64,000 bases of DNA from Candidatus Rokuibacteriota bacterium (GCA_005887895.1 VBPC01000173.1:3006-67005), one strand, 5' to 3'; positions 784 through 17,885 are shown, counted from the stretch's first letter. Notes: a model not told the origin generated them from the letters alone. Numbers and translations are program-made.

Positions 784-2574
784 ATGAGCATCGTGACCGC
801 CGCGCGCCGGAGCGCGTACGCGGGTGTCCTGCTGGCCGCCGTCCTGACGCTCGTTTTCCTCGCCCTCCCGGCCGAGGCCCAGCAGGCCGCCGCCAGGGAG
901 CCCGCCTACCGGGCGTTCCCCCTGCTCGGCTCACGGCTGGCCGTGTGGGCCGTCGCGCAGCTGCACCTCAACTTCGCCGCGTTCATCCTCGGCGTGCCGA
1001 TCTTCGCGGTGATCATCGAGATCATCGGCTGGCGCACGCGTGACGCCCGCTACGACTGGCTGTCGCATGAGTTCGTGAAGCTGACGTTCGCGGCGTTCTC
1101 CACGACGGCGCTGCTCGGCGCGTTCCTGCTCTTCCTCTTCGTCGGCTACTACCCGAAGTTCTGGACCTACATGTCCTCTATCTTCTTCCCGACGTACTGG
1201 GTCTACGCCCTGCTGTTCTTCGCCGAGACGTTCACCGTCTACCTCTGGTACTACGGCTGGGACTGGCTGTCGGGCTCCCGCAAGTGGATCCACGTCAGCC
1301 TGGGCGTGCTGTCGAACCTCTTCGGCACCGCCATCCTCGTGGTCGCCAACTCGTGGGTCACCTTCATGATGTCGCCCTCGGGCATCGACGACTCGGGCGC
1401 GCTCAAGGGCGGCGTGTGGGCGGCCATCCACAACCCCACCTGGATCCCGATCAACATCCACCGGCTGATCGCCAACATCGTGTTCGGGGGCACCATCGCG
1501 GGGGCGTACGCGGCATTCCGCTTCCTTTCCGCCAAGACGGACGAAGAGCGGGCGCGGTACGACTGGATGGGCTACATCGGCAATTTCGTCGCGCTGTCGG
1601 CCTTCATCGTGCTGCCGTTCGCCGGCTACTACCTGGGCCGGGAGATCTACGCGTTCAACCAGACGATGGGCATCACGATGATGGGCGGCTTCATGTCGTG
1701 GCTGTGGATCATCCAGGCCATTCTCATCGGCATCCTCTTCCTCGGCTCGAACTACTACCTCTGGCTCGGCATGGAGCGCATCCCGGGCGCCGAGCGCTAT
1801 CGCAAGTACGTCCCGCCGATGCTCATCATCCTCACCGTCGGGTTCATGGTGTGGGCGACGCCGCGCTCGATGGTCGTCACCCTGGACGAGGCGCGGGCCA
1901 TGGGCGGCACCCACCATCCACTCCTCGGCTTCTTCGGCGTGATGTCGGCCAAGAACACGGTCGTGAACCTCATGATCCTCACGACGTTCCTCTCCTACAT
2001 CCTCTACCGCCGCGCGAACCGGATCTCGACGCGGTCGTGGGTGCGCACCGGGATGGCGATCCAGTGGGCGGCCTTCGCTGTGGCCGCCGTCGTCGTGGTC
2101 TTCTACGGCGTCTACGGCTACTTCGTGGAGTCGATCGTGCGCATCGGCTTCTCGGTCTACCAGGTGGTGGCGGTGCTGGCCGCCATCGTGGTGGTCATGG
2201 CCATCGACGTGCCGCTGTTCAAGGGCGCGCGCTCGACCGGCACCATCCGCTGGGGCACCATCGCGCCCCACTCGCAGTACGTGCTCATTCTCCTGGCCGT
2301 CACCTTCACGTGGCTGATGGGCCTCATGGGCTTCGCGCGCTCCGGCATCCGGCAGCACTGGCACGTGTACGGCGTCCTGCGGGACACCTCGGTGGACGCG
2401 GCGACGCCCGCCCTCGGGTACGCGGCCAACGTGATCACGTCGGTGACGCTCGTGTTCTTCGCGCTCGTCATGTTCATCTTCTGGATCGGCGGCCTGGGCG
2501 AGAAGGGCAAGGAGACGGCGCACGGGCACGCGCCGGCCCCGGTGCTGGCCGGCGGCAGCGACCAGGACGTCTAG
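784..2574 (+). CDS. Cytochrome bd-type quinol oxidase subunit I (CydA) family homologue with an extra N-terminal signal/TM segment; no cydB follows
   Basis: The start at the ATG at 784 (MSIVTAARRSAYAGVLLAAVLTLVFLALPAEA) is inferred. The segment AQLHLNFAAFILGVPIF...GYYPKFWTYM...FFAETFTVYLWYYGWDWLSGSRKWIHVSLGVLSNLFGTAILVVANSWVTFMMSP aligns by eye with CydA TM1-TM4. The putative haem-ligand His in TM1, a Glu in the FFAETF motif and the His in INIHRLIANIVFGG are conserved. Confidence 0.7.
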   Translation: MSIVTAARRSAYAGVLLAAVLTLVFLALPAEAQQAAAREPAYRAFPLLGSRLAVWAVAQLHLNFAAFILGVPIFAVIIEIIGWRTRDARYDWLSHEFVKLTFAAFSTTALLGAFLLFLFVGYYPKFWTYMSSIFFPTYWVYALLFFAETFTVYLWYYGWDWLSGSRKWIHVSLGVLSNLFGTAILVVANSWVTFMMSPSGIDDSGALKGGVWAAIHNPTWIPINIHRLIANIVFGGTIAGAYAAFRFLSAKTDEERARYDWMGYIGNFVALSAFIVLPFAGYYLGREIYAFNQTMGITMMGGFMSWLWIIQAILIGILFLGSNYYLWLGMERIPGAERYRKYVPPMLIILTVGFMVWATPRSMVVTLDEARAMGGTHHPLLGFFGVMSAKNTVVNLMILTTFLSYILYRRANRISTRSWVRTGMAIQWAAFAVAAVVVVFYGVYGYFVESIVRIGFSVYQVVAVLAAIVVVMAIDVPLFKGARSTGTIRWGTIAPHSQYVLILLAVTFTWLMGLMGFARSGIRQHWHVYGVLRDTSVDAATPALGYAANVITSVTLVFFALVMFIFWIGGLGEKGKETAHGHAPAPVLAGGSDQDV

Positions 2575-2575
2575 G

Positions 2576-3373
2576 ATGCACGTGCCCGTCGGCGTGAAGG
2601 TCGGCCTCTTCGCCGTCGCCGTGATGGGCAGCTACTCCTACTTCGCCAACTCGATCCCGCAGATCGAGTCCAAGCCGCCGCAAGAGCTGTCGCTGGAAGG
2701 CGGCAACGTCACGCCGGCCCAGCTCGTGAAAGCCGGCGAGGAGATCTTCCACACCAAGGGCACCTGCGAGATCTGCCACCGCATCGGCCAGCCGGGCACG
2801 CGGGCGCCCGACCTGGCCGGCGCCGGCGGGCGCGCCGCCAAGCGGAAGCCCGGCATGAGCGCCAAGGCCTACCTCATCGAGTCGCTGCTGCAGCCGCAGG
2901 CCTACGTCGTCGAGGGCTACCCGCCGATCATGCCGGCCGTGGACAAGCCGCCGATCGCGCTCAATCGCTCCGAAGTGTGGGCGCTGACCGCGTTCCTCGA
3001 GTCGCTCGGCGGCACCGTCGACGTGACGCTGAACGACATCCCGGCCAGCGTCGGCGCGGCGGCGGCCGGCGGCGGGGCGGCGGAGTTCAAGATTCCGGGC
3101 GATCCTCAGGCCGGCGCCCAGGTGTTCCAGGGCAAGGGCACCTGCATCGCGTGCCACAAGGCGGGCAAGATCGGCGCCTCGCCGGTCGGTCCCGACCTCT
3201 CGCAGATCGCCAAGATCCAGACGCCCGACTACATCATGGGGAAGATCCTGAATCCGGCCGGCATGGGCACAGTGGCCGGCTTTCCCAAGGGTGTCATGCC
3301 CCAGGACTTCGGCACGCGGCTGACCTCGAAGGAGTACGTCGATCTCGTCTCCTTCCTGCTCACCCTGAAATGA
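2576..3373 (+). CDS. Dihaem c-type cytochrome
   Basis: There are two CxxCH motifs (CEICH, CIACH), each followed by a distal Met-containing segment, and an N-terminal hydrophobic anchor. The gene begins 1 nt after the upstream stop. Confidence 0.8.
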   Translation: MHVPVGVKVGLFAVAVMGSYSYFANSIPQIESKPPQELSLEGGNVTPAQLVKAGEEIFHTKGTCEICHRIGQPGTRAPDLAGAGGRAAKRKPGMSAKAYLIESLLQPQAYVVEGYPPIMPAVDKPPIALNRSEVWALTAFLESLGGTVDVTLNDIPASVGAAAAGGGAAEFKIPGDPQAGAQVFQGKGTCIACHKAGKIGASPVGPDLSQIAKIQTPDYIMGKILNPAGMGTVAGFPKGVMPQDFGTRLTSKEYVDLVSFLLTLK

Positions 3374-3377
3374 GCCG

Positions 3378-4142
3378 ATGAGATTCCTCCGCTCGCGCTT
3401 CCTGCAGGCCGTCGCGATCTTCGTGCTGGCGTTCGTCGTCCTGCGCTTCGGGATCCGGCCGCCGGCGCCGTGGAGCGTCCTGTCGCTCTACATGTTCATC
3501 ATCACGCTGGCGCTCCTCATCTTCGTCTCATCCGATCGCGACTCGTGGCGCGACTTCGTGCGGCCGATCTGGCTGACGCTGACCGACCCGCGCTACCGCG
3601 GGCTGCGTTCGGTCATCGTCGTGCTGGTGCCGCTGCTGTTCGGCTACTACGCCTACACCCAGGCGGCGGCCAAGCCCCAGGGGCCGCCCGAGCTGCGCGC
3701 GGTGCACCCGGCGCCGCCCGCCTCGATCCAGTTCCGCGGCAAGGAGATCAACATCTCCGGTGTGGAGAACCCGCTGCGCAAGGACGCGGCGGCGTTCGGC
3801 AAGCACGTGGCGGCCGGCCACGACACCTACATCCGCAATTGCGTCTACTGCCACGGCGACAACCTCGACGGCAAGGGCCACTTCGCCTACGGCTTCAACC
3901 CGCCGCCGGCGAACTTCCAGGATCCCGGCACCATCGCGATGCTGCAGGAGGCCTACCTCTTCTGGCGAATCGCCAAGGGCGGCCCGGGGCTGCCGAAGGA
4001 ATCGACGCCGTGGAACTCGGTGATGCCGGCCTGGGAGGAGCGTCTCACGGAGGAGCAGATCTGGCAGGTGATCATGTTCCTGTACGATTTCACCGGCCAG
4101 CAGCCGCGCCGTTGGGAAGCGGGAGAGCATGCCTCCCACTAG
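3378..4142 (+). CDS. Membrane-anchored mono-haem class I cytochrome c
   Basis: Two N-terminal TM helices are followed by a single CVYCH haem-binding motif and a downstream Met region (NSVMPAW). Confidence 0.75.
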   Translation: MRFLRSRFLQAVAIFVLAFVVLRFGIRPPAPWSVLSLYMFIITLALLIFVSSDRDSWRDFVRPIWLTLTDPRYRGLRSVIVVLVPLLFGYYAYTQAAAKPQGPPELRAVHPAPPASIQFRGKEINISGVENPLRKDAAAFGKHVAAGHDTYIRNCVYCHGDNLDGKGHFAYGFNPPPANFQDPGTIAMLQEAYLFWRIAKGGPGLPKESTPWNSVMPAWEERLTEEQIWQVIMFLYDFTGQQPRRWEAGEHASH

Positions 4143-4158
4143 GTGGCGGGCGCCGATA

Positions 4159-5733
4159 ATGGCCCATCTGCGTCGTTGCCTTCTCGCTCCTCCCTGCGGC
4201 GTGGCCGGGCCACGCCGCAGTCGTCGCTCGTCGGCGCCTAGCATCTGGACCATTCTCGGCGCCCTACCTCGACCCGGGCTGGCACAGCTGATTTTCTGCG
4301 CGAGTGTTGCGGCCTCGCTGGCGCTCGCCGCGGACGTCGGTAATGCGTTCGCGCAAGCTGGGGATGCGAATGCGGGGAAGGCGGTTTACGAGAAGAAGTG
4401 TGCGGGGTGTCATGGTCAGAACGGCGACGGGAAGGGGCCGGCGGCGGAGCTGCTGGTGCCGGCGCCGCGGGATTTCACGCGGGGGTTGTACAAGATCCGG
4501 ACGACGGCGAGCAAGGCGCCGTCGGACCGGGACCTGTTCAAGATCATCACGGACGGCATGCCCGGGACCTCGATGCCGTCGTGGGCGGTTCTCCCGGACA
4601 AGGACCGCTGGAATCTCGTGGCATACCTGAAGACCCTGGCGCCGGAGGCGTTCAAGGAGGCGCCCAAGAAGCTCGAGCTGCCGAAGGAGGTCGCCTCCTC
4701 GGAGGCGTCGATCAAGCGCGGCAAGGAGATGTTCGAGGCGATCGAGTGCCACAAGTGCCACGGCACCGACGGGCGCGCCGATGGGCCGTCGCGGCCTGAG
4801 CTCAAGGACGAGTGGGGCCATCCGATCGCGCCGGCCAACCTCACCAAGCGCTGGACCTTCCGGGGCGGGCCGGGACGGACCGAGATCGCCACCCGGCTGG
4901 CCGCCGGCGTCCTCGGCACGCCGATGCCGACCTTCATCGACAGCGTCGAGAAGCCGGAGGACATCTGGCACCTCGCGAACTATCTCGCCTCGCTGGGCCC
5001 CGAGCGCCCGAGCTACGCCACCCTGATCACGGTCACCGCCGTCCGCGGCGACATCCCCGACGATCCCAACGCCGAGTTCTGGAAGAAGCTGACGCCGAGC
5101 GCCATCCCGCTGATGGGCCAAATCATCCAGGATCCGCGTAACTTCAATCCGTCGGTGGATCTCGTCGCCGTCCGAGCTGCCTACAACGAGCGGGACGTCG
5201 TGTTCCACCTGACGTGGGACGACCCCAGCGAGTCGAAGGGCGACGGCAAGCAGACGTTCGCCGACGCGATCTCGCTCCAGTTCCCGCCGCAGATCACCGC
5301 GTCGATCGAGCGGCCCTATTTCCTGATGGGCGACGCCAACGAAGGCGTGTACCTGTTGCGCTGGGAGCAAGGCAAGGGCGTCGGCGAGGCGACCGCCAAC
5401 GGGCCGACGAAGATCGCACCGATCGCGGGCGGCGAGGCGGGCGGCAAGGCGGTGTACGACCACGGCCAGTACCGGCTGGTGATGCGGCGCCCGCTGGCCG
5501 CCACCGGCGAGGCGCGGCCGACGTTCCGGCCGGTCGTGTTCACGCCGGTGGCGATCCAGGCCTGGGACGGCGGCGCCGGGGAGACCGGCACCAGGATGTC
5601 GCTGACGTCATGGTACTATCTGCGGCTGGAGGAACCGCAGTCGAACCGACGCTTCGTCATTCCTCCCGTCGTGGCAATCCTCACACTGGCAGCCATGGTC
5701 CTCGTCGTGCGCGCGGCGAATCGCGTCCGATGA
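4159..5733 (+). CDS. Dihaem cytochrome c fused to an EB_dh-like (DMSO-reductase gamma / ethylbenzene dehydrogenase gamma type) haem-b domain, with a C-terminal TM anchor
   Basis: The N-terminal half carries CAGCH and CHKCH. The C-terminal half (HLTWDDPSESKGDGKQTFADAISLQFPP...YFLMGDANEGVYLLRW...) resembles the Met/Lys-ligated haem-b EB_dh fold. A C-terminal hydrophobic helix (VIPPVVAILTLAAMVLVV) follows. The start is uncertain: ATG 4129, ATG 4159 or GTG 4201 are all possible. Confidence 0.6.
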   Translation: MAHLRRCLLAPPCGVAGPRRSRRSSAPSIWTILGALPRPGLAQLIFCASVAASLALAADVGNAFAQAGDANAGKAVYEKKCAGCHGQNGDGKGPAAELLVPAPRDFTRGLYKIRTTASKAPSDRDLFKIITDGMPGTSMPSWAVLPDKDRWNLVAYLKTLAPEAFKEAPKKLELPKEVASSEASIKRGKEMFEAIECHKCHGTDGRADGPSRPELKDEWGHPIAPANLTKRWTFRGGPGRTEIATRLAAGVLGTPMPTFIDSVEKPEDIWHLANYLASLGPERPSYATLITVTAVRGDIPDDPNAEFWKKLTPSAIPLMGQIIQDPRNFNPSVDLVAVRAAYNERDVVFHLTWDDPSESKGDGKQTFADAISLQFPPQITASIERPYFLMGDANEGVYLLRWEQGKGVGEATANGPTKIAPIAGGEAGGKAVYDHGQYRLVMRRPLAATGEARPTFRPVVFTPVAIQAWDGGAGETGTRMSLTSWYYLRLEEPQSNRRFVIPPVVAILTLAAMVLVVRAANRVR

Positions 5734-5789: not shown

Positions 5790-6479
5790 ATGCGGAAGGT
5801 AGCGACGGCAGGCAGCGTGGCCGCGCTCGTCATCGGCGCGGCGATGTGGTGGGCAGCCTCGGTGGACGCGCAGGGCGGCGGCACCATCGAGGCTGACGTG
5901 AAGTACAACGGCGCGCCCAAGGTCGAGAAGCTCAAGGTCAACAAGGACACCGAGAAGTGCGGCACCGAGACGACGATCGAGCACGTGGTGGTGGGCTCCA
6001 ACAAGGGCCTCGCCAACGCGGTGGTCTCGGTTCCCGACGCCAAGGGGGCCACCAAGGCCAAGGGCGCGATCGACCAGCACGGCTGCCGGTTCGTGCCCCA
6101 CGTGGTCGTGATGCAGCCCGGCGAGATCGAGATCAAGAACTCCGACGACATCCTGCACAACATCCACACGTACTCGACGGCCAACCCGTCCATCAACAAG
6201 GCCCAGCCGAAGTTCAAGAAGGTGATGACGGAGAAGCTCGAGAAGCCGGAGTTCGTGAAAGTCACCTGCGACGTGCACAGCTGGATGCTCGGCTGGGTGG
6301 CGGTGGTGCCGGGCCTGGCCGCCGCGACCGACAACAACGGCGTCGCCAAGATCGAGAACGTGCCGGCCGGCAAGCACAAGGTCGAGGTGTGGCACGAGAC
6401 GCTGGGCAAGCAGGAGAAGGACGTCGACGTCAAGGCCGGGCAGGTGACCAAGGTCAGCTTCGAGCTGAAGGGCAAGTGA
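5790..6479 (+). CDS. Periplasmic cupredoxin-like (type-1 copper) protein with a C-terminal beta-sandwich domain
   Basis: An AGGAGG ribosome-binding site lies 7 nt upstream of the ATG, and a signal peptide follows. The putative Cu ligands are His in KNSDDILHNIH and Cys/His/Met in CDVHSWM (C-x2-H-x2-M). The C-terminus is CarboxypepD_reg-like (GVAKIENVPAGKHKVEVWHE). It is a paralogue of the gene at 13177-13926. Confidence 0.6.
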   Translation: MRKVATAGSVAALVIGAAMWWAASVDAQGGGTIEADVKYNGAPKVEKLKVNKDTEKCGTETTIEHVVVGSNKGLANAVVSVPDAKGATKAKGAIDQHGCRFVPHVVVMQPGEIEIKNSDDILHNIHTYSTANPSINKAQPKFKKVMTEKLEKPEFVKVTCDVHSWMLGWVAVVPGLAAATDNNGVAKIENVPAGKHKVEVWHETLGKQEKDVDVKAGQVTKVSFELKGK

Positions 6480-6512: not shown

Positions 6513-7176
6513 ATGCTTGACTGGTGGCTGCCTGAAAACGTCTCGACCTACGGGCGGGACATCGACTGGTTGTTCCACCTCATCTACTACATCACCGGGA
6601 TCACCGCGATCCTCGTGTTCGGGGCCATGATCATCTTCCTGGTGATGTACCGCGACCGTCCCGGTCGCCGGGCCCGCTACACCCACGGCAACACCACGCT
6701 GGAGATCGTCTGGACGATCGTGCCGGCGCTGATCCTCGTGATCCTGACGCTGCTGAGCGTCCCGGCGTGGTCGAAGATCAAGATGACCATGCCGGAGACG
6801 GACTTCATCGTGCAAGTGACCGCGAAGCAGTTCAACTGGCAAATCACCTATCCCGGCCCCGACGGCAAGTTCGGCACCGACGACGACAAGACGCTGCTCG
6901 ACGAGATGCACGTGGCAGGACGCGGTGCCGGGCCGCCAGATCGTGCAGTGGTTCGAGGCGACCAAGCCCGGCAAGTACGAGCTGCCGTGCGCCGAGCTGT
7001 GCGGCTTCGGCCACTCCGGCATGCGCGGCTGGATCTACGTGCACACGCCCGACGAGTACGCGAAGTGGGCGGCGGAGAACCTGACGGCCCAGGCGGCCGG
7101 CGGCGAGCAGAAGCAGGCGGACGAGGCCAAGCCGGCGGCGCCCGCCGCCAAGACGGGAGGAAAGGCCAAGCGATGA
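6513..7176 (+). pseudogene. coxB: Cytochrome c oxidase subunit II (CoxB) disrupted by an internal deletion of about 27 codons plus a frameshift
   Basis: Frame 0 (6513 to about 6911) encodes the two TM helices and ...VQVTAKQFNWQITYPGP...DDDKTLLDEMHV. The conserved continuation (PVG..V....TS.DViHsF.vP...vK) is absent. Frame +2 resumes at about 6917 with QDAVPGRQIVQWFEATKPGKYELPCAELCGFGHSGMRGWIYVHTPDEY, which contains the CuA ligands, and runs to the stop at 7176. Confidence 0.7.
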
Positions 7177-8927
7177 GCGCCACCACCGCGACGGCTCACG
7201 CGCACGTTGCACACGAGCATCACGAGCTGGGCTTCGTCCGGACGTACATCTTCTCGACCGATCACAAGATGATCGCCCGCCAGTTCCTGTTCCTGGGGCT
7301 GACGATGATGATCCTCGGCGGCCTGCTGGCGCTGATCGTGCGCTGGCAGCTGGCGTGGCCGGAGACGCCGATCCCCGGCATGGCGCACATCTTCACCGAG
7401 ACCTCGCCGCCCGGGATCATCCAGCCGCCGCAGTACAACATGGCGTTCACCATGCACGCCACGATCATGATCTTCTTCGTGATCATGCCCATCCTGGCCG
7501 GCGCCTTCGGCAACTTCTGCATCCCGCTCATGATCGGCGCCCGCGACATGGCCTTCCCGTTCCTGAACATGCTGTCGTTCTGGGTGACGGGCACGGCCGG
7601 GGTCATCATGCTGTCAGGCTTCTTCGTCGAGGGCGGCCACGCCGCCGCCGGCTGGACGTCCTACGCGCCGTTGTCGGCGGTGCCGGAGTACACCGGCGTC
7701 AACTGGGGCCAGAACATCTGGTGCATCAGCCTGTTCGTCATGGGCGTCGGCTCCATGATGGGCTCCATCAACTACATCACCACGATCATCAACATGCGGG
7801 CGCCCGGCATGCGCCTGTTCCGCATGCCGCTCGTCGTGTGGTCGCTGTTCATCACGGCCATCCTCCTGCTGCTGGCGCTGCCGGTGCTGACCTCCGGTGT
7901 GGCCATGCTGCTGTTCGACCGCACGCTCGGCACCTCGTGGTTCAAGCCGTCGGGCGGCGGCGAGCCGCTGCTGTGGCAGCACCTGTTCTGGTACTTCGGC
8001 CATCCCGAGGTCTACATCCTCATCCTGCCGGCCATGGGCATCGCCTCGGAGATCCTGCCGGTGTTCTCCCGCAAGCCGATCTTCGGCTACCACGCCATGG
8101 CGTTCTCGATGATCGGCATCGCGTTCCTGTCGTGGATCGTCTACGGCCACCACATGTTCGTGAGCGGGATGAACCCCCGGCTCGGCATGGCGTTCACGGT
8201 GAGCACGATGATCATCGCGGTGCCCTCGGCCATCAAGACCTTCAACTGGCTGGGCACCCTGTGGGGCGGCCGCATCCAGTTCAAGGTGCCGATGCTGTTC
8301 GCGCTCGGCTTCGTGTCGATGTTCGTGATCGGCGGGCTCAGCGGCATCTTCATGGCCAGCACCCCGGTCGACATCTACATCCAGGACACCTACTTCATCG
8401 TGGCCCACATCCACTACGTCGTGTTCGGCGGCTCGATCTTCGGCGCCTTCGCGGCGATCTACTTCTGGTTCCCGAAGATGTTCGGGCGGATGCTGAACCC
8501 GGTCCTCGGCCATCTCCACTTCTGGGGCACCCTGATCTTCTTCAACTGGGTGTTCTTCCCGATGCACATCATCGGCGTCGGTGGCCAGATGCGGCGGATC
8601 TACAACCCGATGCAGTACGAGTTCCTCCAGCACCAGCAGCACTGGAACGTGTTCATGACCTACGGCGCGCTGTGCCTGGGCGCCGTCCAGCTGCTGTTCG
8701 TGGTCAACTTCTTCTGGTCGCTGTTCGCCGGCCGCAAGGCGCCGATGAACCCGTGGAACTCCACGACCCTCGAATGGACGGCGCCCTCGCCGCCGCCGCA
8801 TCTCAACTGGGGCGCGACCGTGCCCACCGTCTACCGGGGGCCGTACGAGTACAGCGATCCCGAGGCGGCCGAGGACTTCCTGCCGCAGAACCAGCCGCCG
8901 GCCCGGGTCGGCGCGCGGGCTCACTGA
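7173..8927 (+). CDS. coxA: Cytochrome c oxidase subunit I (A-family haem-copper oxidase)
   Basis: The ATG overlaps the coxB stop (ATGA). The protein is 584 aa with 12 TM helices and the hallmark motifs [22 protein letters not shown] and HHMF...GGLSGI...HYV. The tail extends out to ...PARVGARAH. Confidence 0.92.
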   Translation: [584 protein letters not shown]

Positions 8928-8941
8928 CGGAGACGCCCGGG

Positions 8942-9820
8942 GTGAGGCTGGCGCATCGCCTGGCCGTGCTGACGGCCGCCGCGACCGGCGTGCTCATCGT
9001 CTTCGGCGGGCTCGTGACGAACACGGGCGCCGCCCTGGCGGTGCCCGACTGGCCGACGACGTTCGGCCACAACATGTTCCTGTTCCCACCCTCGCAGATG
9101 GTGGGCGGCGTGTTCTACGAGCACAGCCACCGCCTGCTCGGCGCCCTCGTGGGCGGACTGACGGTGGGGCTGGCGGCGATCCTCTGGCGGCGCGGCGGCC
9201 GCTGGCGCGCGCTCGCCGTCGCCGCCGCGCTCCTCGTCGTCCTCCAGGGCGTCGTCGGAGGGCTGCGGGTGGTGCTGCAGACGGAGGCGCTCGCCATGAT
9301 CCATGGTCCGCTGGCGCAGGCGTTCTTCGCGCTGACCGTCACCATCGCGCTGCTCACGTCGCCCCGGATGGCCGCGCCGGCGCTCACGGTGGATGCGACC
9401 ACGCGCCGGCTGACGCTGACCGCCGCGGCGACGGTGTATCTACAGATCGTGTTCGGCGCGCTCCTCACTCACGCCGGTTATCTCGGCCTCCACCTGGCCG
9501 GCGCGCTGGCCGTCTTCGTCCTGGTGCCGATCGTCACCGCGCGCCTGCGGCATGGCGGCGACCCGGTGGCCGCGCCGGCGGCCCGCGCCCTCCTGGCTCT
9601 GCTGGGGCTGCAGCTGCTGCTCGGCGTCGGCAGCTATCTGGTGCGCTTCTCGGCGATCTGGATCCCGGGCGGACAGCTCACGATGCTGGCGGCGCCCGTC
9701 GCGCATCGGCTGGCCGCCGGCCTCGTCCTCGCGGCCGTCGTGGTGCTGGCCGTCCGCGTGCTGGCCTCCGCGCGGCCGGCGGTGCTCGACGTTCCCGGCG
9801 TGCTCGGAGTCGTGTCATGA
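8942..9820 (+). CDS. ctaA: Haem A synthase (CtaA/COX15 family, short type-2 form)
   Basis: The GTG start is in frame with the stop at 9820. The protein has eight TM helices, the motifs DWPTTFGHNMF and YEHSHRLLG, and His in downstream helices. Confidence 0.7.
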   Translation: MRLAHRLAVLTAAATGVLIVFGGLVTNTGAALAVPDWPTTFGHNMFLFPPSQMVGGVFYEHSHRLLGALVGGLTVGLAAILWRRGGRWRALAVAAALLVVLQGVVGGLRVVLQTEALAMIHGPLAQAFFALTVTIALLTSPRMAAPALTVDATTRRLTLTAAATVYLQIVFGALLTHAGYLGLHLAGALAVFVLVPIVTARLRHGGDPVAAPAARALLALLGLQLLLGVGSYLVRFSAIWIPGGQLTMLAAPVAHRLAAGLVLAAVVVLAVRVLASARPAVLDVPGVLGVVS

Positions 9821-9938
9821 AGCCCCGCGCGTCTGGAACAGGCCACCTGCGGTTCACGCCGGCCGCGCGGACCCCGCTACGATTGAAGCCCCGCGCGCCT
9901 GGAACAGGCCACCTGCGGTTCACGCCGGCCGCGCGGAC
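9818..9938 (+). repeat. Tandem direct duplication (2 x 55 nt with one mismatch, 11-nt spacer) that exactly fills the ctaA-ctaB intergenic region
   Basis: Copy 1 at 9818-9872 is tgaagccccgcgcgTctggaacaggccacctgcggttcacgccggccgcgcggac. The spacer is cccgctacgat. Copy 2 at 9884-9938 is identical except for a single T-to-C change. Copy 1 starts at the ctaA stop codon and copy 2 ends at the ctaB ATG. Each unit contains the inverted pair ccgcgcg / cgcgcgg. Confidence 0.85.
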
Positions 9939-10841
9939 ATGACGCCGCGGGGCGAGGTCGTCGTGGCGGCGCTTGCGCGCGAGCGCGGACGCGTGGCCGG
10001 CGACCTCCTGTCGCTGACGAAGCCGCGCGTCGTCCTGATGGTGCTCGTGACGACGGTGGTCGGCTACTACGTCGGTCTGGCCGGCGCGCCCGACTACGCG
10101 CGCCTGGCGGCGCTCCTGCTCGGCACGATGCTGGCGGCCGGCGGCACGCTGGCGCTGAACCAGTACTGGGAGCGTGACGTCGACGCCCTCATGGAGCGCA
10201 CGCGCACGCGCCCGCTGCCCGAGGGACGGCTGGCCCCGCTGGAGGCGCTGCTGTTCGGCGGGGGGCTCACGGCGGCGGGGCTCGGCGTGCTGGCCCTCGG
10301 CGTCGGCTGGCTGGCCGCGCTGGTGGTGGCGGCCACGTTCGTGCTCTACATCTTCGCGTACACGCCGCTCAAGGTGCGGACGCCGTTCTGCACGCTGGTC
10401 GGCGCCGTGCCGGGTGCGCTGCCGCCGGTGGCCGGCTGGGCCGCCGCGCGCGACGACGTCGGGGTGGGCGCCTGGGTGCTGTTCGGCATCCTGTTCCTCT
10501 GGCAACTGCCCCACACGCTGGCCATCGGGCGTCTCTACCGTGACGACTATGCCCGGGCCGGCGTGCGGCTGCTGCCGGTGATCGACGCCCAGGGGCGGGC
10601 CACCGAGCGACAGATCCTCAGCGGCTGCCTGGGGCTGCTGGCGGTGAGCCTGCTGCCCACGCTGATCGGCCTGGCCGGCGGCGTCTACTTCGCGGGCGCC
10701 CTCGTCCTCGGCGCCGGGTTCGTCACGCTCGGCGCCCAGCAGGCGCTGGCGCCGTCGGCGTCGCGCGTGCGACGCGTGCTGCTGGCCTCGCTGCTCTACC
10801 TGCCGGCGCTGCTGGCGCTGCTGGCCTTCGACAAAGCATGA
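9939..10841 (+). CDS. ctaB: Protohaem IX farnesyltransferase (haem O synthase)
   Basis: The protein is 301 aa and belongs to the UbiA family, with motifs LTKPRVV, NQYWERDVDALMERTRTRPLP and LFLWQLPHTLAIG. Confidence 0.85.
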   Translation: MTPRGEVVVAALARERGRVAGDLLSLTKPRVVLMVLVTTVVGYYVGLAGAPDYARLAALLLGTMLAAGGTLALNQYWERDVDALMERTRTRPLPEGRLAPLEALLFGGGLTAAGLGVLALGVGWLAALVVAATFVLYIFAYTPLKVRTPFCTLVGAVPGALPPVAGWAAARDDVGVGAWVLFGILFLWQLPHTLAIGRLYRDDYARAGVRLLPVIDAQGRATERQILSGCLGLLAVSLLPTLIGLAGGVYFAGALVLGAGFVTLGAQQALAPSASRVRRVLLASLLYLPALLALLAFDKA

Positions 10842-10966: not shown

Positions 10967-11038
10967 CCGCCGCCGACGCCGCCCACCGGCGGCGGCGACG
11001 ACGACCGCAACGGCTCGTGGGGCCGGCCGCTCGACAAC

Positions 11039-11575
11039 GTGCGGCTGGCGATGATGTTCCTGATCGCGGGCGAGGTGATGTTCTTCGCCGCCCTCGTCTC
11101 CGGCTTCTTCGTCCTGCGGCTGGCGGCGCCGCTGTGGCCGCCGCCGCTGCAGCCGCGGCTGCCCGTGTTCGTGACCGGGCTCAACACGCTCGTCTTGCTC
11201 GGCTCGAGCATCGCCATGCTCGGCGCGACGCGCGCCGTGGGGCGCGGGGAGCGGTCGCGGGCGCTGCGCCGCCTGGCCCTCACGGCCGCGCTCGGCATCC
11301 TGTTCCTCGCCGTGCAGGGCTACGAATGGACGCGGCTGATCGAGTACGGCCTCACCACCTCGTCCGGCGCCTACGGCGGCACGTTCTACACACTGATCGG
11401 CGCGCACGCCGCCCACGTGCTGGGCGCGCTGATCTGGCTGGCCGTCACCCTGACGCTGGCCGCCCGCGGGCGTTTCCTCGACGGCCGCACCGCCGTGCTG
11501 CGAGCGTGCGCGATCTACTGGCACTTCGTCGTGGCCCTGTGGCCGGTTCTCTACGTGACGGTCTACCTGATATGA
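11039..11575 (+). CDS. Cytochrome c oxidase subunit III family protein (short, copy 1)
   Basis: A GTG start gives a 178-aa protein with motifs YEWTRLIEYGL, GTFYTLIGAHAAHVLGALIWL and YWHFVVALWPVLY. Confidence 0.7.
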   Translation: MRLAMMFLIAGEVMFFAALVSGFFVLRLAAPLWPPPLQPRLPVFVTGLNTLVLLGSSIAMLGATRAVGRGERSRALRRLALTAALGILFLAVQGYEWTRLIEYGLTTSSGAYGGTFYTLIGAHAAHVLGALIWLAVTLTLAARGRFLDGRTAVLRACAIYWHFVVALWPVLYVTVYLI

Positions 11576-11787
11576 CGCACGCGTTCGGACGAGTCCTGGC
11601 CTGTGCTTCCTGCATGTCGACCGCGTACGGCGACCAGTCGTTCACCTGGGCGTACGGCGCGCTCATCGTGGCTCCCTTCCTGGTCGCCATCGCGCTCGGC
11701 GCCGTGCTCGCCTGGAGCGCGGGGTATCGGCTGCGGTGGTGCCGCGTGACGCCGATGGCGACGCCGATCAACGAGGAGGTTTCATGA
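11572..11787 (+). CDS. Small membrane protein with an N-terminal CxxC motif (71 aa)
   Basis: The ATG overlaps the cox3 stop and the stop overlaps the next ATG (ATGA at both ends). The sequence MTHAFGRVLACASCMSTAYGDQSF... contains a hydrophobic helix (ALIVAPFLVAIALGAVLAW). Confidence 0.4.
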   Translation: MTHAFGRVLACASCMSTAYGDQSFTWAYGALIVAPFLVAIALGAVLAWSAGYRLRWCRVTPMATPINEEVS

Positions 11788-12398
11788 GTGCTGCAACCCC
11801 GCACGCAGCGGTGGAGCGCGCCGAGACCCCGCTCACGCCGGAGAGCTGGGGCAAGCTCGGGATGTGGATCTTCCTGGCCGGCGACGCCGTCGGCTTCGGC
11901 ACGCTGCTGGCGTCCTACGGCGGCATGCGCGCGACCAGCGCCGACTGGCCGAATCCCTACGCGGTGCTCGGCATCAACCTGACCGCCGCCATGACGTTCC
12001 TGCTGATCTGCTCGAGCGTCACGATGGTGAAGGCGCTCGAGTGGCTGGGCCGCGGCGACCGAGCCAAGGCCAAGATGTTCCTGTTCTTCACCGCGCTGGG
12101 CGGGGCCATCTTCGTCGGCTGCCAGGCCTATGAATGGACGCACCTGATCGAGCGTGGCCTGCACATCAACGGCAATCCCTGGGGGGCCGCGCTGTTCGGC
12201 ACCTCGTTCTTCATCGTCACCGGCTTCCACGGCCTCCACGTGACGGGCGGCGTCATCTACCTGCTGGCGATGATCGGCGTCGTGTCCCGCCGGCCCGATC
12301 CGGCGGCCAGCTACAACGCGGTCGAGATCGCCGGCCTCTACTGGCACTTCGTCGACCTCGTGTGGATCATGGTGTTCACCTTCATGTACCTCCTCTAA
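11784..12398 (+). CDS. Cytochrome c oxidase subunit III (copy 2)
   Basis: The protein is 205 aa with motifs AYEWTHLIERGL, FFIVTGFHGLHVTGGVIYL and YWHFVDLVWIMVF. Confidence 0.85.
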   Translation: MSAATPHAAVERAETPLTPESWGKLGMWIFLAGDAVGFGTLLASYGGMRATSADWPNPYAVLGINLTAAMTFLLICSSVTMVKALEWLGRGDRAKAKMFLFFTALGGAIFVGCQAYEWTHLIERGLHINGNPWGAALFGTSFFIVTGFHGLHVTGGVIYLLAMIGVVSRRPDPAASYNAVEIAGLYWHFVDLVWIMVFTFMYLL

Positions 12399-12411
12399 GG
12401 AGGCGAGATCG

Positions 12412-12750
12412 ATGGCAGCCGAGCACAAGCATCCCAACTACATGGCGATCTTCTACCTGCTGGCGGTGCTGACGGTCGGCGAGATCGCCGTCGTGTTCCT
12501 GCCGCACTACATCGGGATCAGCAAGTTCGCCGTCGGCGTGTTCCTGTGCGCCTTCGCGATCGTCAAGGCGGCGCTGGTCGCCATGTACTTCATGCACCTG
12601 AAGTTCGAGGCGCGCACGCTGGGCCTCATCGCCCTCACGCCGCTGACGATCGCCACGCTGCTGGTGTTCGTCATCCTTCCCGACGCTTCGTTCGTGGATC
12701 ACAAGACGGCGAACGTCAAGCCGGCGGCCGAAGAGCCGGCCAAGCACTGA
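12412..12750 (+). CDS. Prokaryotic cytochrome c oxidase subunit IV (caa3-type CoxD/CtaF family)
   Basis: The sequence HKHPNYMAIFYLLAVLTVGEIAVVFLP...AIVKAALVAMYFMHLKFE is the signature of the small three-helix subunit IV family. Confidence 0.75.
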   Translation: MAAEHKHPNYMAIFYLLAVLTVGEIAVVFLPHYIGISKFAVGVFLCAFAIVKAALVAMYFMHLKFEARTLGLIALTPLTIATLLVFVILPDASFVDHKTANVKPAAEEPAKH

Positions 12751-12783
12751 CAGCGGCCCCGCGGGTGGGGGAGCGCGTGGGGC

Positions 12784-13149
12784 ATGGCGGAGGACGGGCC
12801 GCTGGCGCGGGTGGTGCGCGCCGAGGGGCGGACGCTGCGGCTGCGCTGTCCGCGCTGCGGCCGCGCCCCGCTCTTCCGCGGCTGGTTCACCATGAACGTC
12901 GTCTGCGCGGTCTGCTCTCTCCGCTTCGAGCGGGCCCCCGGCTACTGGATCGGTGCCATCTACGTGAACTACGGCGTCACGGTGACGATCGCGGTGGCGG
13001 GCTACTTCCTGCTGTGGGCGCTGGCCGGCGTCGAGACCGGACAGCTCGCGCTGTGGGTGCCGTTCGTGATCGCGTTTCCGCTGTGGTTCTTCCGCTACAG
13101 CCGGGCGCTCTGGCTCGGCCTCGAGTATGCGCTGAACCCGGACCCGTAG
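12784..13149 (+). CDS. DUF983-family membrane protein (zinc-ribbon plus TM), a family typically found in oxidase operons
   Basis: The signature is CPRCGRAPLFRGWFTMNVVCAVCSLRF followed by two TM helices. Confidence 0.7.
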   Translation: MAEDGPLARVVRAEGRTLRLRCPRCGRAPLFRGWFTMNVVCAVCSLRFERAPGYWIGAIYVNYGVTVTIAVAGYFLLWALAGVETGQLALWVPFVIAFPLWFFRYSRALWLGLEYALNPDP

Positions 13150-13176
13150 GGTCCGCGACCTGAGCAAGGAGTCGGT

Positions 13177-13926
13177 GTGCTGAGAATCGTGGCGATGGTC
13201 GTGCTCGCGATGGCGCTGGCGACGCCGGCGCCGGCCTACGAGGTCGTCACCGTGCCCGACGGCGGCACCCTGGCCGGCGTGGTGAGGTTCGCCGGCCCAC
13301 CGCCGAAGCTCGACCCGCTGCCGGTGAACAAGAACCGCGACGTGTGCGGCGACGAGAAGGCCACGGAGGCGCTCATCGTCGGGCCCGACCACGGCGTGCG
13401 TGGCAGCGTCATCCTCGTGGAGGGCGTCACCCGCGGCAAGGCGCCGGCCGGGGAGGTCCTGCTCGACAACCACAAGTGCCTGTTCGTCTCCCACGTCAGC
13501 GCGACGACGACGGGCGAGCGCGCGCGGGTGAAGAACTCCGACGGCATCCTGCACAACACGCACGGCTTCCTGGCCCGGACGACGGTCTTCAACCTCGCGC
13601 TGCCGAACCGCGACCAGATGATCGACATCACCCGGCGGCTCGGCAAGCCGGGGGTGGTGCGCGTCGTGTGCGACGCGCACACCCACATGTTCGGCTGGAT
13701 CGTCGTGCACGACAGCCCCTACTTCGCCGTGAGCGACGACCACGGCGCGTTCCGCATCGAGGGCATCCCGCCCGGCAGCTACAAGGTCACGCTCTGGCAC
13801 GAGGGCTACCGGCCCCGCGGCCTCGACAAGGACGGGCGCGCGCTGTACGACGAGCCCCGCACCATCACCCGCGACGTCACGATCGCGCCGACGGCGACGG
13901 CGACGGTCGACTTCGAGCTCAAATAG
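13177..13926 (+). CDS. Periplasmic cupredoxin-like (type-1 copper) protein, paralogue of 5790-6479
   Basis: A signal peptide is followed by VKNSDGILHNTHGF and VVCDAHTHMFGW (C-x2-H-x2-M). The C-terminal beta-sandwich (FRIEGIPPGSYKVTLWHE...VDFELK) has the same architecture and conserved blocks as the upstream paralogue. Confidence 0.6.
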   Translation: MLRIVAMVVLAMALATPAPAYEVVTVPDGGTLAGVVRFAGPPPKLDPLPVNKNRDVCGDEKATEALIVGPDHGVRGSVILVEGVTRGKAPAGEVLLDNHKCLFVSHVSATTTGERARVKNSDGILHNTHGFLARTTVFNLALPNRDQMIDITRRLGKPGVVRVVCDAHTHMFGWIVVHDSPYFAVSDDHGAFRIEGIPPGSYKVTLWHEGYRPRGLDKDGRALYDEPRTITRDVTIAPTATATVDFELK

Positions 13927-13935
13927 GAGAGGCGC

Positions 13936-15846: not shown

Positions 15847-15854
15847 GCGATGAC

Positions 15855-16002
15855 GGTTCGTGGGCGGCGGCGGGGGCGGGGTCCGGCGACCACGAGGTAG
15901 GCGGCGATGGTTGGGATGCGTGATTCCCTCGTGCCGGGTGGCTCCGTAAGCGGTTGCGGGAAACGGGTCGGCGGACCCCGCCCCCGCCGCCGCCCACGAA
16001 CC
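15855..16002. repeat. 36-nt inverted repeat (35/36 match) with a 76-nt spacer, forming a large potential stem-loop between the USP/PCP_red gene and the radical-SAM gene
   Basis: Arm 1 at 15855-15890 is ggttcgtgggcggcggcgggggcggggtccggcgac. Arm 2 at 15967-16002 is gtcggcggaccccgcccccgccgccgcccacgaacc, the reverse complement with one G/C mismatch. The loop contains a nested cacgagg / cctcgtg inverted pair. Confidence 0.85.
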
Positions 16003-16037
16003 TCCGCGCTCGCACATCTCTCCTTCGGAAGGATCCC

Positions 16038-17465: not shown

Positions 17466-17884
17466 GCGCCGACGATGGCAGGTTTCGCGCGGCCGCCCGC
17501 GGCTACCTCGTGTACGGCGTCGTCTACTGGATCGGCGGCGCCTGGCTCTGGCTGCACGACGTCGGCCGGGGCTCGGCGGCCAGCGTCGGCTGGATCCTCC
17601 TCGGCGCCGTGCTCGTCGTCCTGGTGCCGTACCTGTTGCGCCGCCGCCGGCGCGCGTTCGAGCGCTACGTGCTCAGCCGGCGCGACTTCGCCCGCATCGT
17701 CGCGCTGTTGCTGGCCGTGCGCGTCCTGGCGGTCGCCCGCGTCGTGTTCCGCGCGGGTAGCGCGACGGTGGCGGCGCCGTGGGGCGGCGTCGTGAGCTAC
17801 CGTGTCGGCGGGGCCGTGTTCATCGTCGTCACGCTGACGGCGCTGGCCCTCGTGGCGCGGGCCGCCTGGGCCCGGGAGCCATGA
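17462..17884 (+). CDS. Hypothetical membrane protein (about 140 aa, 3-4 TM helices)
   Basis: The GTG overlaps the upstream stop (GTGA). Hydrophobic helices include YLVYGVVYWIGGAWLWL and WILLGAVLVVLVPYLL. It lies in the operon between the radical-SAM and Mrp genes. Confidence 0.45.
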   Translation: MSADDGRFRAAARGYLVYGVVYWIGGAWLWLHDVGRGSAASVGWILLGAVLVVLVPYLLRRRRRAFERYVLSRRDFARIVALLLAVRVLAVARVVFRAGSATVAAPWGGVVSYRVGGAVFIVVTLTALALVARAAWAREP

Positions 17885-17885
17885 G

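What the first reader, a model, noticed from the sequence alone, without database searches (positions are those of the whole stretch)
784..5733. CydB-less cytochrome bd subunit-I homologue operonic with three c-type cytochromes: candidate non-canonical quinol:cytochrome c or bd-like oxygen-reductase module
The CydA-family protein keeps the residues corresponding to the bd haem ligands, judging from the TM1 His, the FFAETF Glu and the INIHRL His. It has gained an N-terminal signal/TM segment, and no cydB/cydX follows it. Instead it is followed without gaps by a dihaem cytochrome c, a membrane-anchored monohaem cytochrome c and a dihaem c/EB_dh fusion; the genes are 1-4 nt apart or overlapping. 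This sits directly upstream of cupredoxin and an A-type oxidase. That arrangement suggests either a bd-like enzyme that exchanges electrons with c-type cytochromes (a complex-III substitute feeding the aa3 oxidase) or one of the poorly characterised cydA-only bd-like clades. No such complex has been characterised biochemically, to my knowledge.
Basis: partly seen in the sequence, partly recalled or inferred. Interest (0 to 1): 0.7.

Follow-up and report, generated by a model that had tools for sequence, protein, structure and literature searches.

The report
Known bd-like (OR-N2) cytochrome c module
This is a real, strongly conserved four-gene respiratory module built on a cytochrome bd subunit-I relative and three c-type cytochromes. 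It belongs to the already catalogued but biochemically untested "OR-N2 / bd-like oxidase" class, here in a soil Rokubacteria genome and embedded in an aa3 oxidase operon.

Summary
Genes at 784-2574 (CydA-like, 596 aa), 2576-3373 (dihaem c), 3378-4142 (3-TM monohaem c) and about 4129/4201-5733 (dihaem c + EB_dh + TM anchor) form a tight operon. No cydB or second cydA was found in the window.

It is not a new kind. Residue signature, about 14 helices and operon content match the OR-N2 subfamily of the bd superfamily (Murali, Gennis and Hemp 2021). That is the "bd-like oxidase + two cytochromes c + alternative NxrC" cluster known from Nitrospira, Nitrospina and anammox bacteria since 2010-2013. 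No member has a solved structure or measured activity.

New context found here:
- The gene order held in 63 of 63 loci with room, across four or more phyla.
- In Rokubacteria and Gemmatimonadota the module is followed by a putative blue-copper protein and a full aa3 operon.
- In Acidobacteriota, ActA-ActB-ActE of alternative complex III directly precede it, with no NrfD-type subunit.
- An AhbD/NirJ-like radical SAM enzyme, a Usp-PCP_red protein and an Mrp/NUBPL ATPase travel with it.

I favour, narrowly, a complex-III-like quinol:cytochrome c role (0.4) over a cytochrome-c-dependent oxygen reductase (0.33).

The parts
784..2574 (+). CydA-like membrane subunit (596 aa) of OR-N2 type. It has an N-terminal signal/anchor helix plus 13 TM helices. 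Key residues are H61, Y141, E148, H170, H226, M387, S520 and W526.
2576..3373 (+). Dihaem cytochrome c (265 aa) with a weakly hydrophobic N-terminal anchor.
   Evidence: CxxCH at 64 and 190. Pfam Cytochrom_C E 2.3e-18. C64/C67/H68/M119 and C190/C193/H194/M241 are conserved in 66 sequences. It is fused to the CydA-like protein in P0121, P0124 and P0134.
3378..4142 (+). Membrane-anchored monohaem cytochrome c (254 aa) with three N-terminal TM helices.
   Evidence: CxxCH at 155. Pfam Cytochrome_CBB3 E 6.7e-9. Hydropathy segments at 3-30, 29-53 and 79-97. C155/C158/H159/M216 are conserved in 72 sequences.
4129..5733 (+). Dihaem cytochrome c + EB_dh (type II DMSO-reductase gamma / NxrC-like) domain + C-terminal TM anchor. 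The start may be 4129, 4159 or 4201.
   Evidence: Pfam and NCBIfam hits. The dihaem domain matches 6h5l_B at E 3e-46, and the EB_dh domain matches Kuenenia NxrC 7b04_C at E 3.5e-4. The EB_dh haem ligands are not strictly conserved.
5790..6479 (+). Secreted 229-aa protein: putative type-1 copper (cupredoxin-like) domain plus a CarboxypepD_reg-like domain.
   Evidence: H123, C160, H163 and M166 (a C-x2-H-x2-M motif) are invariant in 51 sequences. Pfam CarboxypepD_reg E 3e-8. It lies downstream of the module in 16/17 Rokubacteria and 32/33 Gemmatimonadota loci. The fold is not confirmed.
6513..7176 (+). coxB (COX2 with the CuA motif CAELCGFGHSGM). An 80-bp deletion at 6914/6915 interrupts it and shifts the frame.
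   Evidence: Three-frame translation and GC3 switch. blastn against L002 and L005. DNA alignment. tblastn.
7173..8927 (+). coxA (COX1, 584 aa, A1-type with the GHPEV motif).
   Evidence: Pfam COX1 E 7.8e-153. Sequence. Start position.
8942..10841 (+). ctaA (about 8942-9820) and ctaB (9939-10841), the haem A and haem O synthases.
   Evidence: tblastn with L005 CtaA and CtaB. Pfam UbiA E 3.9e-53. COX15-CtaA is annotated in L005.
10967..12750 (+). Two COX3-family genes and COX4_pro.
   Evidence: Pfam.
12751..13926 (+). DUF983 protein, then a second cupredoxin-like/CarboxypepD_reg paralogue (13177-13926, 36% identical to the protein at 5790-6479).
   Evidence: Pfam. tblastn. Alignment.
13927..18746 (+). 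Accessory set that travels with the module in other phyla: Usp + PCP_red x3 + rubredoxin-like protein (about 13936-15846), AhbD/NirJ-like radical SAM/SPASM + PCP_red protein (within 15924-17465), and an Mrp/NUBPL Fe-S carrier ATPase (within 17838-18746).
   Evidence: Pfam. NCBIfam: AhbD 307 bits and NirJ2 302 bits, both below their cut-offs. Conserved next to the module in Gemmatimonadota (44/44 for the radical SAM gene), NC10 and Acidobacteriota.

Best explanation
**Identity (high confidence, about 0.9).** This is the four-subunit 'OR-N2 / bd-like' membrane complex of a Candidatus Rokubacteria (Methylomirabilota) bacterium.
- A CydA-derived subunit with about 14 helices keeps the haem b558-type ligands (H226, M387), the His of the buried high-spin haem (H61) and the cytoplasmic proton-path residues (E148, H170).
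- It has lost the Q-loop, the Glu ligand of haem b595 (now Ser520) and any CydB partner.
- It is joined by three membrane-anchored periplasmic subunits carrying five His/Met c-haems and an NxrC-like domain.

**Function (inferred, about 0.4).** The complex connects the quinone pool with periplasmic c-type cytochromes and the blue-copper protein, in the manner of an alternative complex III. The CydA-like subunit would be the quinol-interacting membrane part. The c-haems would be the wire that hands electrons to the co-operonic aa3 oxidase.

**Shown:** composition, conservation, synteny and gene fusions.
**Inferred:** that the four proteins form one complex, the haem content, quinol reactivity and the direction of electron flow.
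For: **Membership.**
- The residue pattern H61/Y141/E148/H170/H226/M387/N391/S520/W526 matches the published OR-N2 reference H99/Y183/E190/H213/H269/M430/N434/S563/W569. From H226 onwards the offset is a constant 43.
- The model has 13 TM helices plus an N-terminal helix.

**One complex.**
- The gene order held in 63/63 loci with room.
- Natural fusions exist: CydA-like + dihaem c, and monohaem c + dihaem c/EB_dh.

**Complex-III-like role.**
- The aa3 operon follows the module in 15/17 Rokubacteria/Methylomirabilota and 33/33 Gemmatimonadota loci. In this window it is nested between the module and the module's accessory genes.
- In 9/10 Acidobacteriota loci, ActA (E 6e-72), ActB (E 1e-287) and ActE (E 3e-55) of alternative complex III directly precede the CydA-like gene with overlapping stops and starts. 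No NrfD-type ActC/ActF is present in the fully accounted 17.6-kb locus L080.
- The same idea was proposed for the Nitrospina/anammox cluster.
Against: - No quinol-binding residues can be identified. The published view is that the Q-site residues are all absent.
- H61, E148, H170 and W526, which serve oxygen reduction and proton delivery in true bd oxidases, are invariant in 82 sequences. That fits a catalytic haem site at least as well.
- A related Nitrospinae-type cluster carries its own membrane cytochrome b for quinone contact.
- I could not check whether genomes with this cluster lack bc1 or ACIII.
- Co-location with aa3 is absent in the Acidobacteriota, Myxococcota and two NC10-type loci.
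Confidence: 0.4

Rival explanations
1. The complex is a cytochrome c (or cupredoxin)-oxidising terminal oxygen reductase of bd type. Electrons would enter from the c-haems into the b558-type haem (H226/M387) and pass via W526 to a His61-ligated high-spin haem. There O2 would be reduced with protons taken from the cytoplasm through E148/H170, giving charge separation without pumping. Tyr141 might replace the missing third haem as an electron/proton donor.
For: - It is homologous to oxygen reductases over the whole CydA fold.
- H61, E148, H170, W526 and Y141 are invariant in 82 sequences from four or more phyla.
- This is the published working hypothesis for OR-N enzymes and for NIDE0901-type proteins in Nitrospira, which lack haem-copper oxidases.
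- The mono- plus dihaem anchored cytochromes parallel CcoO/CcoP of cbb3 oxidases (Pfam/NCBIfam hits).
- An AhbD/NirJ-like tetrapyrrole radical SAM enzyme is linked to the module and could supply a special haem.
- The Nitrospinae-type variant has a separate cytochrome b for quinone contact.
Against: - The b595 ligand E445 is replaced by Ser in 81/82 sequences, and E99 is Tyr, so the di-haem active site of real bd oxidases is not intact.
- The module sits in one apparent operon with a complete aa3 oxidase in two phyla. That is unusual for two independent terminal oxidases.
- With ActA/B/E but no NrfD-type subunit in Acidobacteriota, a pure cytochrome c oxidase would leave the Fe-S/haem wire without an electron entry point.
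- Orthologous clusters occur in strictly anaerobic anammox bacteria.
Confidence: 0.33
2. The complex runs in reverse as a cytochrome c:quinone reductase. Driven by the membrane potential, it would push electrons from a high-potential periplasmic donor into the quinone pool, as proposed for nitrite oxidisers.
For: This was proposed for the orthologous cluster next to NXR in Nitrospira, Nitrospina and anammox bacteria. The EB_dh domain is related to NxrC.
Against: No NXR, or other high-potential-donor enzyme, was found among the roughly 55 ORFs scanned in this window. Co-location with aa3 argues for forward flow to oxygen.
Confidence: 0.1
3. The complex is another small-molecule reductase or detoxifier (for example NO or peroxide) that uses c-type cytochromes as donors.
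For: A single His-ligated high-spin haem with a proton path could serve other substrates. A detoxifying role was raised as an open question for OR-N enzymes.
Against: There is no specific evidence for it. No nitrogen-oxide genes lie nearby.
Confidence: 0.07

Closest known systems
OR-N2 subfamily of the cytochrome bd superfamily (Murali, Gennis and Hemp 2021). Also called the NIDE0901-like 'bd-like oxidase' of Nitrospira, 'TO_1' of Ca. Manganitrophus, and the bd-like + mono/dihaem c + alternative NxrC cluster of Nitrospina and anammox bacteria.
   Same: - Same signature residues and spacing.
- About 14 helices, no Q-loop, no CxxCH in subunit I and no CydB.
- Operon with several cytochromes c and an EbdC/NxrC homologue, with cupredoxin-like proteins nearby.
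   Different: - Here there is no NXR and no OR-N1 partner in the window.
- The host is a non-nitrifying soil lineage.
- The module is embedded in an aa3 oxidase operon.
- I did not compare it directly with a Nitrospira sequence. The only Nitrospirota relative I retrieved (P0271, 35% identity) is an orphan gene.
Canonical cytochrome bd quinol oxidases (CydAB; qOR1-3, e.g. E. coli bd-I 6rko, Geobacillus 5ir6).
   Different: - No CydB or CydX.
- The Q-loop is replaced by extra helices.
- E445 is Ser and E99 is Tyr.
- It has an added N-terminal helix and three c-type cytochrome partners.
Alternative complex III (ActABCDEF; 6f0k, 6btm).
   Same: - A multihaem c wire on a polytopic membrane subunit, encoded directly upstream of an A-type oxidase.
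- In Acidobacteriota the module is physically joined to ActA, ActB and ActE.
   Different: There is no NrfD-family subunit, and no ActA or ActB in this window. Quinol oxidation by the CydA-like subunit is unproven.
cbb3-type cytochrome c oxidase (CcoNOP).
   Same: A catalytic membrane subunit plus a membrane-anchored monohaem and a dihaem cytochrome c. The cytochrome domains hit cbb3 subunit III profiles.
   Different: The catalytic subunit is unrelated (bd fold, not haem-copper), and there is no CuB site.

Membership tests
Cytochrome bd superfamily (CydA fold) | Sequence and fold homology to subunit I | tested here: met
Cytochrome bd superfamily (CydA fold) | Axial ligands of haem b558 (H186, M393) and the His of the active-site haem (H19) | tested here: met
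   H226, M387 and H61 are invariant in 82 sequences. The H61 and H226 equivalences come from HMMER alignments. M387 is assigned by its spacing relative to the published table.
Canonical quinol-oxidising bd (qOR1-3, bd-I/bd-II) | Glu ligand of haem b595 (E445) and Glu99 | tested here: not met
   Ser520 (81/82 sequences) and Tyr141 (82/82) occupy these positions.
Canonical quinol-oxidising bd (qOR1-3, bd-I/bd-II) | Adjacent cydB (and cydX) | tested here: not met
   The next genes are cytochromes c. There was no Cyt_bd_oxida_II hit among about 55 window ORFs. The rest of the genome was not available.
Canonical quinol-oxidising bd (qOR1-3, bd-I/bd-II) | Periplasmic Q-loop with quinol-binding residues | tested here: inconclusive
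   The stretch between the H226 helix and the M387 helix is modelled as three further TM helices (one is the counterpart of CydA TM6) plus a loop of about 30 residues. Sequence alignment to CydA stops there. The literature states that the Q-site residues are absent. I did not make a residue-level structural superposition.
OR-N2 (Murali et al. 2021) | Signature residues H/Y/E/H/H/M-N/S/W at the positions in Supplementary Table 6 | tested here: met
   H61, Y141, E148, H170, H226, M387/N391, S520 and W526. From H226 onwards the spacing is identical to reference TKS59798.1.
OR-N2 (Murali et al. 2021) | 14 transmembrane helices | tested here: met
   The AF2 model has 13 long helices plus an N-terminal hydrophobic helix. 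The N-terminal one may be a cleaved signal peptide.
OR-N2 (Murali et al. 2021) | Operon with several cytochromes c and an EbdC homologue | tested here: met
   The arrangement is conserved in 63/63 loci with room.
OR-N2 (Murali et al. 2021) | Placement inside the OR-N2 clade in a CydA phylogeny or HMM classifier | not tested
OR-N1 | Gly at the E107 position, M400/S449 spacing, and an operon with petA/petB/petD | tested here: not met
   Glu148 is present, the spacing does not fit, and there are no pet genes.
OR-C | CxxCH motifs in subunit I | tested here: not met
   No CxxCH in the 596-aa protein. A few relatives are fused to a cytochrome c.
Alternative complex III | NrfD-type quinol-binding subunits ActC/ActF with ActA and ActB | tested here: not met
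   None in the window. ActA, ActB and ActE are present only in the Acidobacteriota relatives.
Type II DMSO-reductase gamma / EB_dh haem b subunit | Met and Lys axial ligands of haem b | tested here: inconclusive
   Domain coverage is complete (TIGR03477). The Met position (M400) is Met in only 40/59 sequences, and the inferred Lys position is Arg in the window (K in 15/59). The Lys position was placed by eye from the NxrC alignment.
Cupredoxin (type 1 copper) | His, Cys, His and Met ligands on a cupredoxin fold | tested here: inconclusive
   The ligand-like residues are invariant. The Pfam cupredoxin hit reaches only E 0.11 in 1 of 11 sequences. The model is poor in that region, and Foldseek found no match.

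The most novel reading that the evidence does not exclude
The OR-N2 module is a third, bd-derived type of quinol:cytochrome c oxidoreductase. Its CydA-like subunit would have taken over the job of the NrfD-type subunits of alternative complex III; Acidobacteriota still pair it with ActA/B/E. In Rokubacteria and Gemmatimonadota it would work as a unit, possibly a supercomplex, with the aa3 oxidase encoded in the same operon. Its haem supply would be served by a dedicated AhbD/NirJ-like radical SAM system.
Probability: 0.3. Interest if true: 0.8.

Novelty: new member of a known kind. Interest (0 to 1): 0.45.

Why it matters
**Abundance.** OR-N 'bd-like oxidases' are common in soil and water bacteria. 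At least 594 species genomes carry a relative, and the family spans 1152 protein clusters at 50% identity. They include the key nitrite oxidisers.

**Open question.** After 15 years nobody knows whether they reduce oxygen or talk to the quinone pool.

**What this locus adds.** It shows that the same module works without nitrite oxidoreductase. In two phyla it is embedded in an aa3 oxidase operon. In a third it is spliced onto alternative-complex-III parts that lack their usual quinol-binding subunit.

**How to test it.** This gives a concrete prediction: quinol:cytochrome c activity, and aa3 respiration that depends on the module. The test could be run in cultivable Gemmatimonadota or Acidobacteriota, if an isolate carries the cluster.

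Tried and rejected
- **Canonical bd-I/bd-II.** Rejected: no cydB, E445 and E99 are not conserved, and the Q-loop region does not align.
- **OR-C and OR-N1 classes.** Rejected on the absence of haem c motifs, on the residue signature and on operon context.
- **COX2-COX1 fusion protein (ORF 6513-8927).** Rejected. It is an artefact of an 80-bp deletion and frameshift.
- **Nitrospirota comparator P0271.** It turned out to be an orphan gene beside a NuoF-like gene, so it was not informative for synteny. P0160 was also an orphan.
- **Confirming the cupredoxin fold.** This failed. Pfam was weak, the PDB sequence search found nothing, and the AF2 model had pLDDT 66 with the putative copper region below 50. 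Foldseek matched only the transthyretin-like C-terminal domain.
- **Literature searches.** Searches for a link between bd-like oxidases and AhbD/NirJ radical SAM enzymes, and for Rokubacteria respiratory chains, found nothing relevant.
- **Complex III elsewhere in the genome.** Not testable. Only the 64-kb window and flanks of 8-10 kb around each related locus were available.


Full report
**1. What is there**

The window is GC-rich (about 68%). Its closest relatives are MAGs of Candidatus Rokubacteria / Methylomirabilota. From 784 to 5733 there are four co-directional genes.

- **CydA-like protein (784-2574, 596 aa).** Only its N-terminal 240 residues match Pfam Cyt_bd_oxida_I (E 1.2e-18). 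It has no CxxCH motif.
- **Dihaem cytochrome c (2576-3373).**
- **Monohaem cytochrome c (3378-4142).** It has three N-terminal hydrophobic helices.
- **Dihaem c + EB_dh protein (to 5733).** It has two c-haem domains, a complete EB_dh / type II DMSO-reductase gamma-type domain (TIGR03477 E 4.6e-28) and a C-terminal membrane anchor.

The spacers are 1 and 4 nt. The fourth gene can start at ATG 4129 (14-nt overlap), ATG 4159 or GTG 4201. The identical 596-aa protein is called on seven soil metagenome contigs.

**2. The CydA-like protein**

HMMER alignments to solved CydA chains give these equivalences:

| Window residue | Geobacillus | E. coli | Role in bd oxidases |
|---|---|---|---|
| H61 | H21 | H19 | His of the active-site haem |
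| Y141 | E101 | E99 | Glu near the active site |
| E148 | E108 | E107 | proton channel |
| H226 | H186 | H186 | haem b558 ligand |

So the 'FFAETF Glu' is a proton-channel residue, not a haem ligand.

**3. It is a catalogued class**

Murali, Gennis and Hemp (2021) split the bd superfamily into qOR, OR-C and OR-N. [quoted passage not shown] Their Supplementary Table 6 lists the OR-N2 reference residues H99, Y183, E190, H213, H269, M430/N434, S563 and W569.

The window protein has H61, Y141, E148, H170, H226, M387/N391, S520 and W526. From H226 onwards the offset from the reference is a constant 43 residues. OR-N1 (Gly at the E107 position, different spacing, pet genes) and OR-C (haem c motifs in subunit I) do not fit.

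Earlier papers describe the same cluster in Nitrospira, Nitrospina and anammox bacteria: a bd-like protein with 14 helices, a monohaem c, a dihaem c, an alternative NxrC and cupredoxin-like proteins. They voice both functional ideas, a novel terminal oxidase and an 'alternative complex III' for contact with the quinone pool. Papers from 2024-2025 state that function and subunit composition remain untested. OR-N is already recorded in Methylomirabilota, Gemmatimonadota, Acidobacteriota and Myxococcota.

**4. Conservation**

The family has 1152 clusters at 50% identity with E <= 1e-3, and relatives in at least 594 species genomes. I analysed 81 loci.

- The order CydA-like, dihaem c, monohaem c, dihaem c/EB_dh held in 63 of 63 loci long enough to show it.
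- These residues are invariant in 82 sequences: H61, E79, Y141, E148, H170, H226, R227, M387, K390, N391, W526 and H527. S520 is present in 81 of 82.
- All five CxxCH motifs and a distal Met for each are conserved.
- The Met/Lys ligands expected for the EB_dh haem b are not. Met400 occurs in 40/59 sequences. The Lys position, which I placed by eye from the NxrC alignment, is Arg in the window and Lys in only 15/59. Whether that domain binds haem b is therefore open.
- Gene fusions support one physical complex. The CydA-like protein is fused to the dihaem c in three independent clusters. The monohaem c is fused to the dihaem c/EB_dh protein in NC10-type loci.

**5. Context: the part that goes beyond the published descriptions I could read**

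*(a) Copper protein and aa3 operon.* Downstream lie:
- a secreted 229-aa protein with invariant H123, C160, H163 and M166 (a C-x2-H-x2-M, type-1-copper-like motif) and a CarboxypepD_reg domain;
- coxB, coxA (A1-type, GHPEV motif), ctaA, ctaB, two COX3 genes and COX4.

This copper-protein + cox block follows the module in 15/17 Rokubacteria/Methylomirabilota and 33/33 Gemmatimonadota loci with room. It is absent in 7/7 Acidobacteriota loci and the one Myxococcota locus.

*(b) Accessory genes.* Three further genes accompany the module in every phylum sampled:
- a Usp + PCP_red + rubredoxin-like protein;
- a radical SAM/SPASM + PCP_red enzyme, closest to haem b synthase AhbD and to NirJ2 (about 300 bits, below both cut-offs);
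- an Mrp/NUBPL Fe-S carrier ATPase.

They lie directly upstream in Gemmatimonadota (radical SAM gene in 44/44 loci) and NC10, and downstream in Acidobacteriota. In this window they sit after the cox genes (13927-18746). The aa3 operon is therefore nested inside the module's own gene neighbourhood.

*(c) Acidobacteriota hybrid.* In 9/10 Acidobacteriota loci the CydA-like gene is directly preceded by true ActA (E 6e-72), ActB (E 1e-287) and ActE (E 3e-55) of alternative complex III, with overlapping stop and start codons. No ActC, ActD or ActF is present in the fully accounted 17.6-kb locus L080.

*(d) Nitrospinae-type relative.* This cluster has the CydA-like protein fused to a cytochrome c, two MrpD-like subunits, a multihaem c/EB_dh protein and a separate cytochrome b. 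That matches the 'TO_2' cluster described for Ca. Manganitrophus.

**6. How it most likely works**

*Fairly safe.* This is a membrane complex in which periplasmic c-haems, and probably the copper protein, exchange electrons with a b558-type haem (H226/M387). Through W526 that haem would connect to a buried His61-ligated haem, which is served by a conserved cytoplasmic proton path (E148, H170).

*Not settled.* What happens at the membrane end is unknown. I narrowly favour a complex-III-like role, quinol to cytochrome c/cupredoxin to aa3 (0.4), for four reasons.
- One operon carrying both the module and a complete aa3 oxidase with its haem A genes suits consecutive partners better than two rival oxidases.
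- In Acidobacteriota the ActA/B/E wire has no NrfD-type subunit, so the CydA-like protein is the only plausible quinol-contacting subunit there.
- The CydA fold resembles ActC/ActF.
- The cytochromes resemble those that bridge complex III and oxidases (QcrC, ActE and CcoP hits).

The main rival is a cytochrome-c-dependent oxygen reductase (0.33). It is supported by the invariant active-site His and proton path, by the published consensus, by the linked tetrapyrrole radical SAM enzyme, and by the variant that carries its own cytochrome b. It is weakened by the loss of the E445 and E99 carboxylates.

Reverse electron flow (0.1) and another reductase function (0.07) remain possible.

**7. Limits**

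- I could not scan whole genomes for bc1 or ACIII. That would be the most informative computation.
- I made no phylogeny against the published reference set.
- The M387, S520 and W526 equivalences rest on spacing and on weak but consistent C-terminal alignments.
- The cupredoxin fold is not confirmed.

**8. Verdict**

This is a new member of a known, uncharacterised class, and the interest lies in the context rather than in the class.

Noticed in passing
window 6914/6915 (coxB, 6513-7176): There is an 80-bp deletion relative to L002 (99.3% identical) and L005. It shifts the frame, removes the stretch with the first CuA histidine (DVIHSF) and creates a false 804-aa COX2-COX1 'fusion' ORF (6513-8927). 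There is no obvious flanking repeat. It is either an assembly error or an inactivated coxB.
   Followed up: partly
window 13927-18746; L030-L084 upstream of the module; L015/L018; L055-L085 downstream: A conserved accessory trio travels with the OR-N2 module in all phyla sampled: a Usp + PCP_red x2-3 + rubredoxin-like protein, an AhbD/NirJ2-like radical SAM/SPASM + PCP_red enzyme, and an Mrp/NUBPL ATPase. This suggests dedicated haem synthesis or modification, or cofactor insertion. I found no paper linking these genes to bd-like oxidases.
   Followed up: partly
L080 3487-12700 (also L055, L066, L068, L073, L075, L076, L081, L085): Acidobacteriota hybrid cluster: actA, actB and actE (true ACIII homologues) are followed directly by the CydA-like gene and the three cytochromes. 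ActC, ActD and ActF are absent. Ferrochelatase and a HemY-like oxidase lie divergently upstream.
   Followed up: yes
P0121, P0124, P0134; L018 10512-12725 (also L013, L015): Natural gene fusions occur. The CydA-like protein is fused to the dihaem (or a monohaem) cytochrome c, and the monohaem c is fused to the dihaem c/EB_dh protein (738 aa). These blur the published OR-N / OR-C boundary.
   Followed up: partly
L089 8851-22424: A Nitrospinae-type cluster has two small cytochromes c, a CydA-like-cytochrome c fusion, two MrpD-like antiporter subunits, a 761-aa multihaem c/EB_dh protein, a dihaem c and a cytochrome b. It resembles 'TO_2' of Ca. Manganitrophus.
   Followed up: no
window 5790-6479 and 13177-13926: Two paralogous secreted proteins (36% identical) carry invariant His/Cys/His/Met (a C-x2-H-x2-M motif) plus a transthyretin-like CarboxypepD_reg domain. 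This looks like an undescribed two-domain blue-copper protein family. Its C-terminal domain resembles Kuenenia 6hif_Y.
   Followed up: partly
window 4129-5733, residues 400 and 489: The expected Met/Lys ligands of the EB_dh haem b are not strictly conserved. Met occurs in 40/59 sequences, with Gly in 13, and the Lys position is mostly Arg. The domain may bind haem differently or not at all.
   Followed up: partly
L027 4780-7712 (minus strand): The Myxococcota locus has a second Cyt_bd_oxida_I protein of 712 aa and a CarboxypepD_reg protein divergently upstream of the module. It could be an OR-N1/OR-N2 pair.
   Followed up: no
window 9791-9940: The ctaA-ctaB junction holds about 115 nt more than the corresponding stretch of L005. 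The ORF containing ctaB is open from 9552, with a 163-aa extension that is probably not translated.
   Followed up: no
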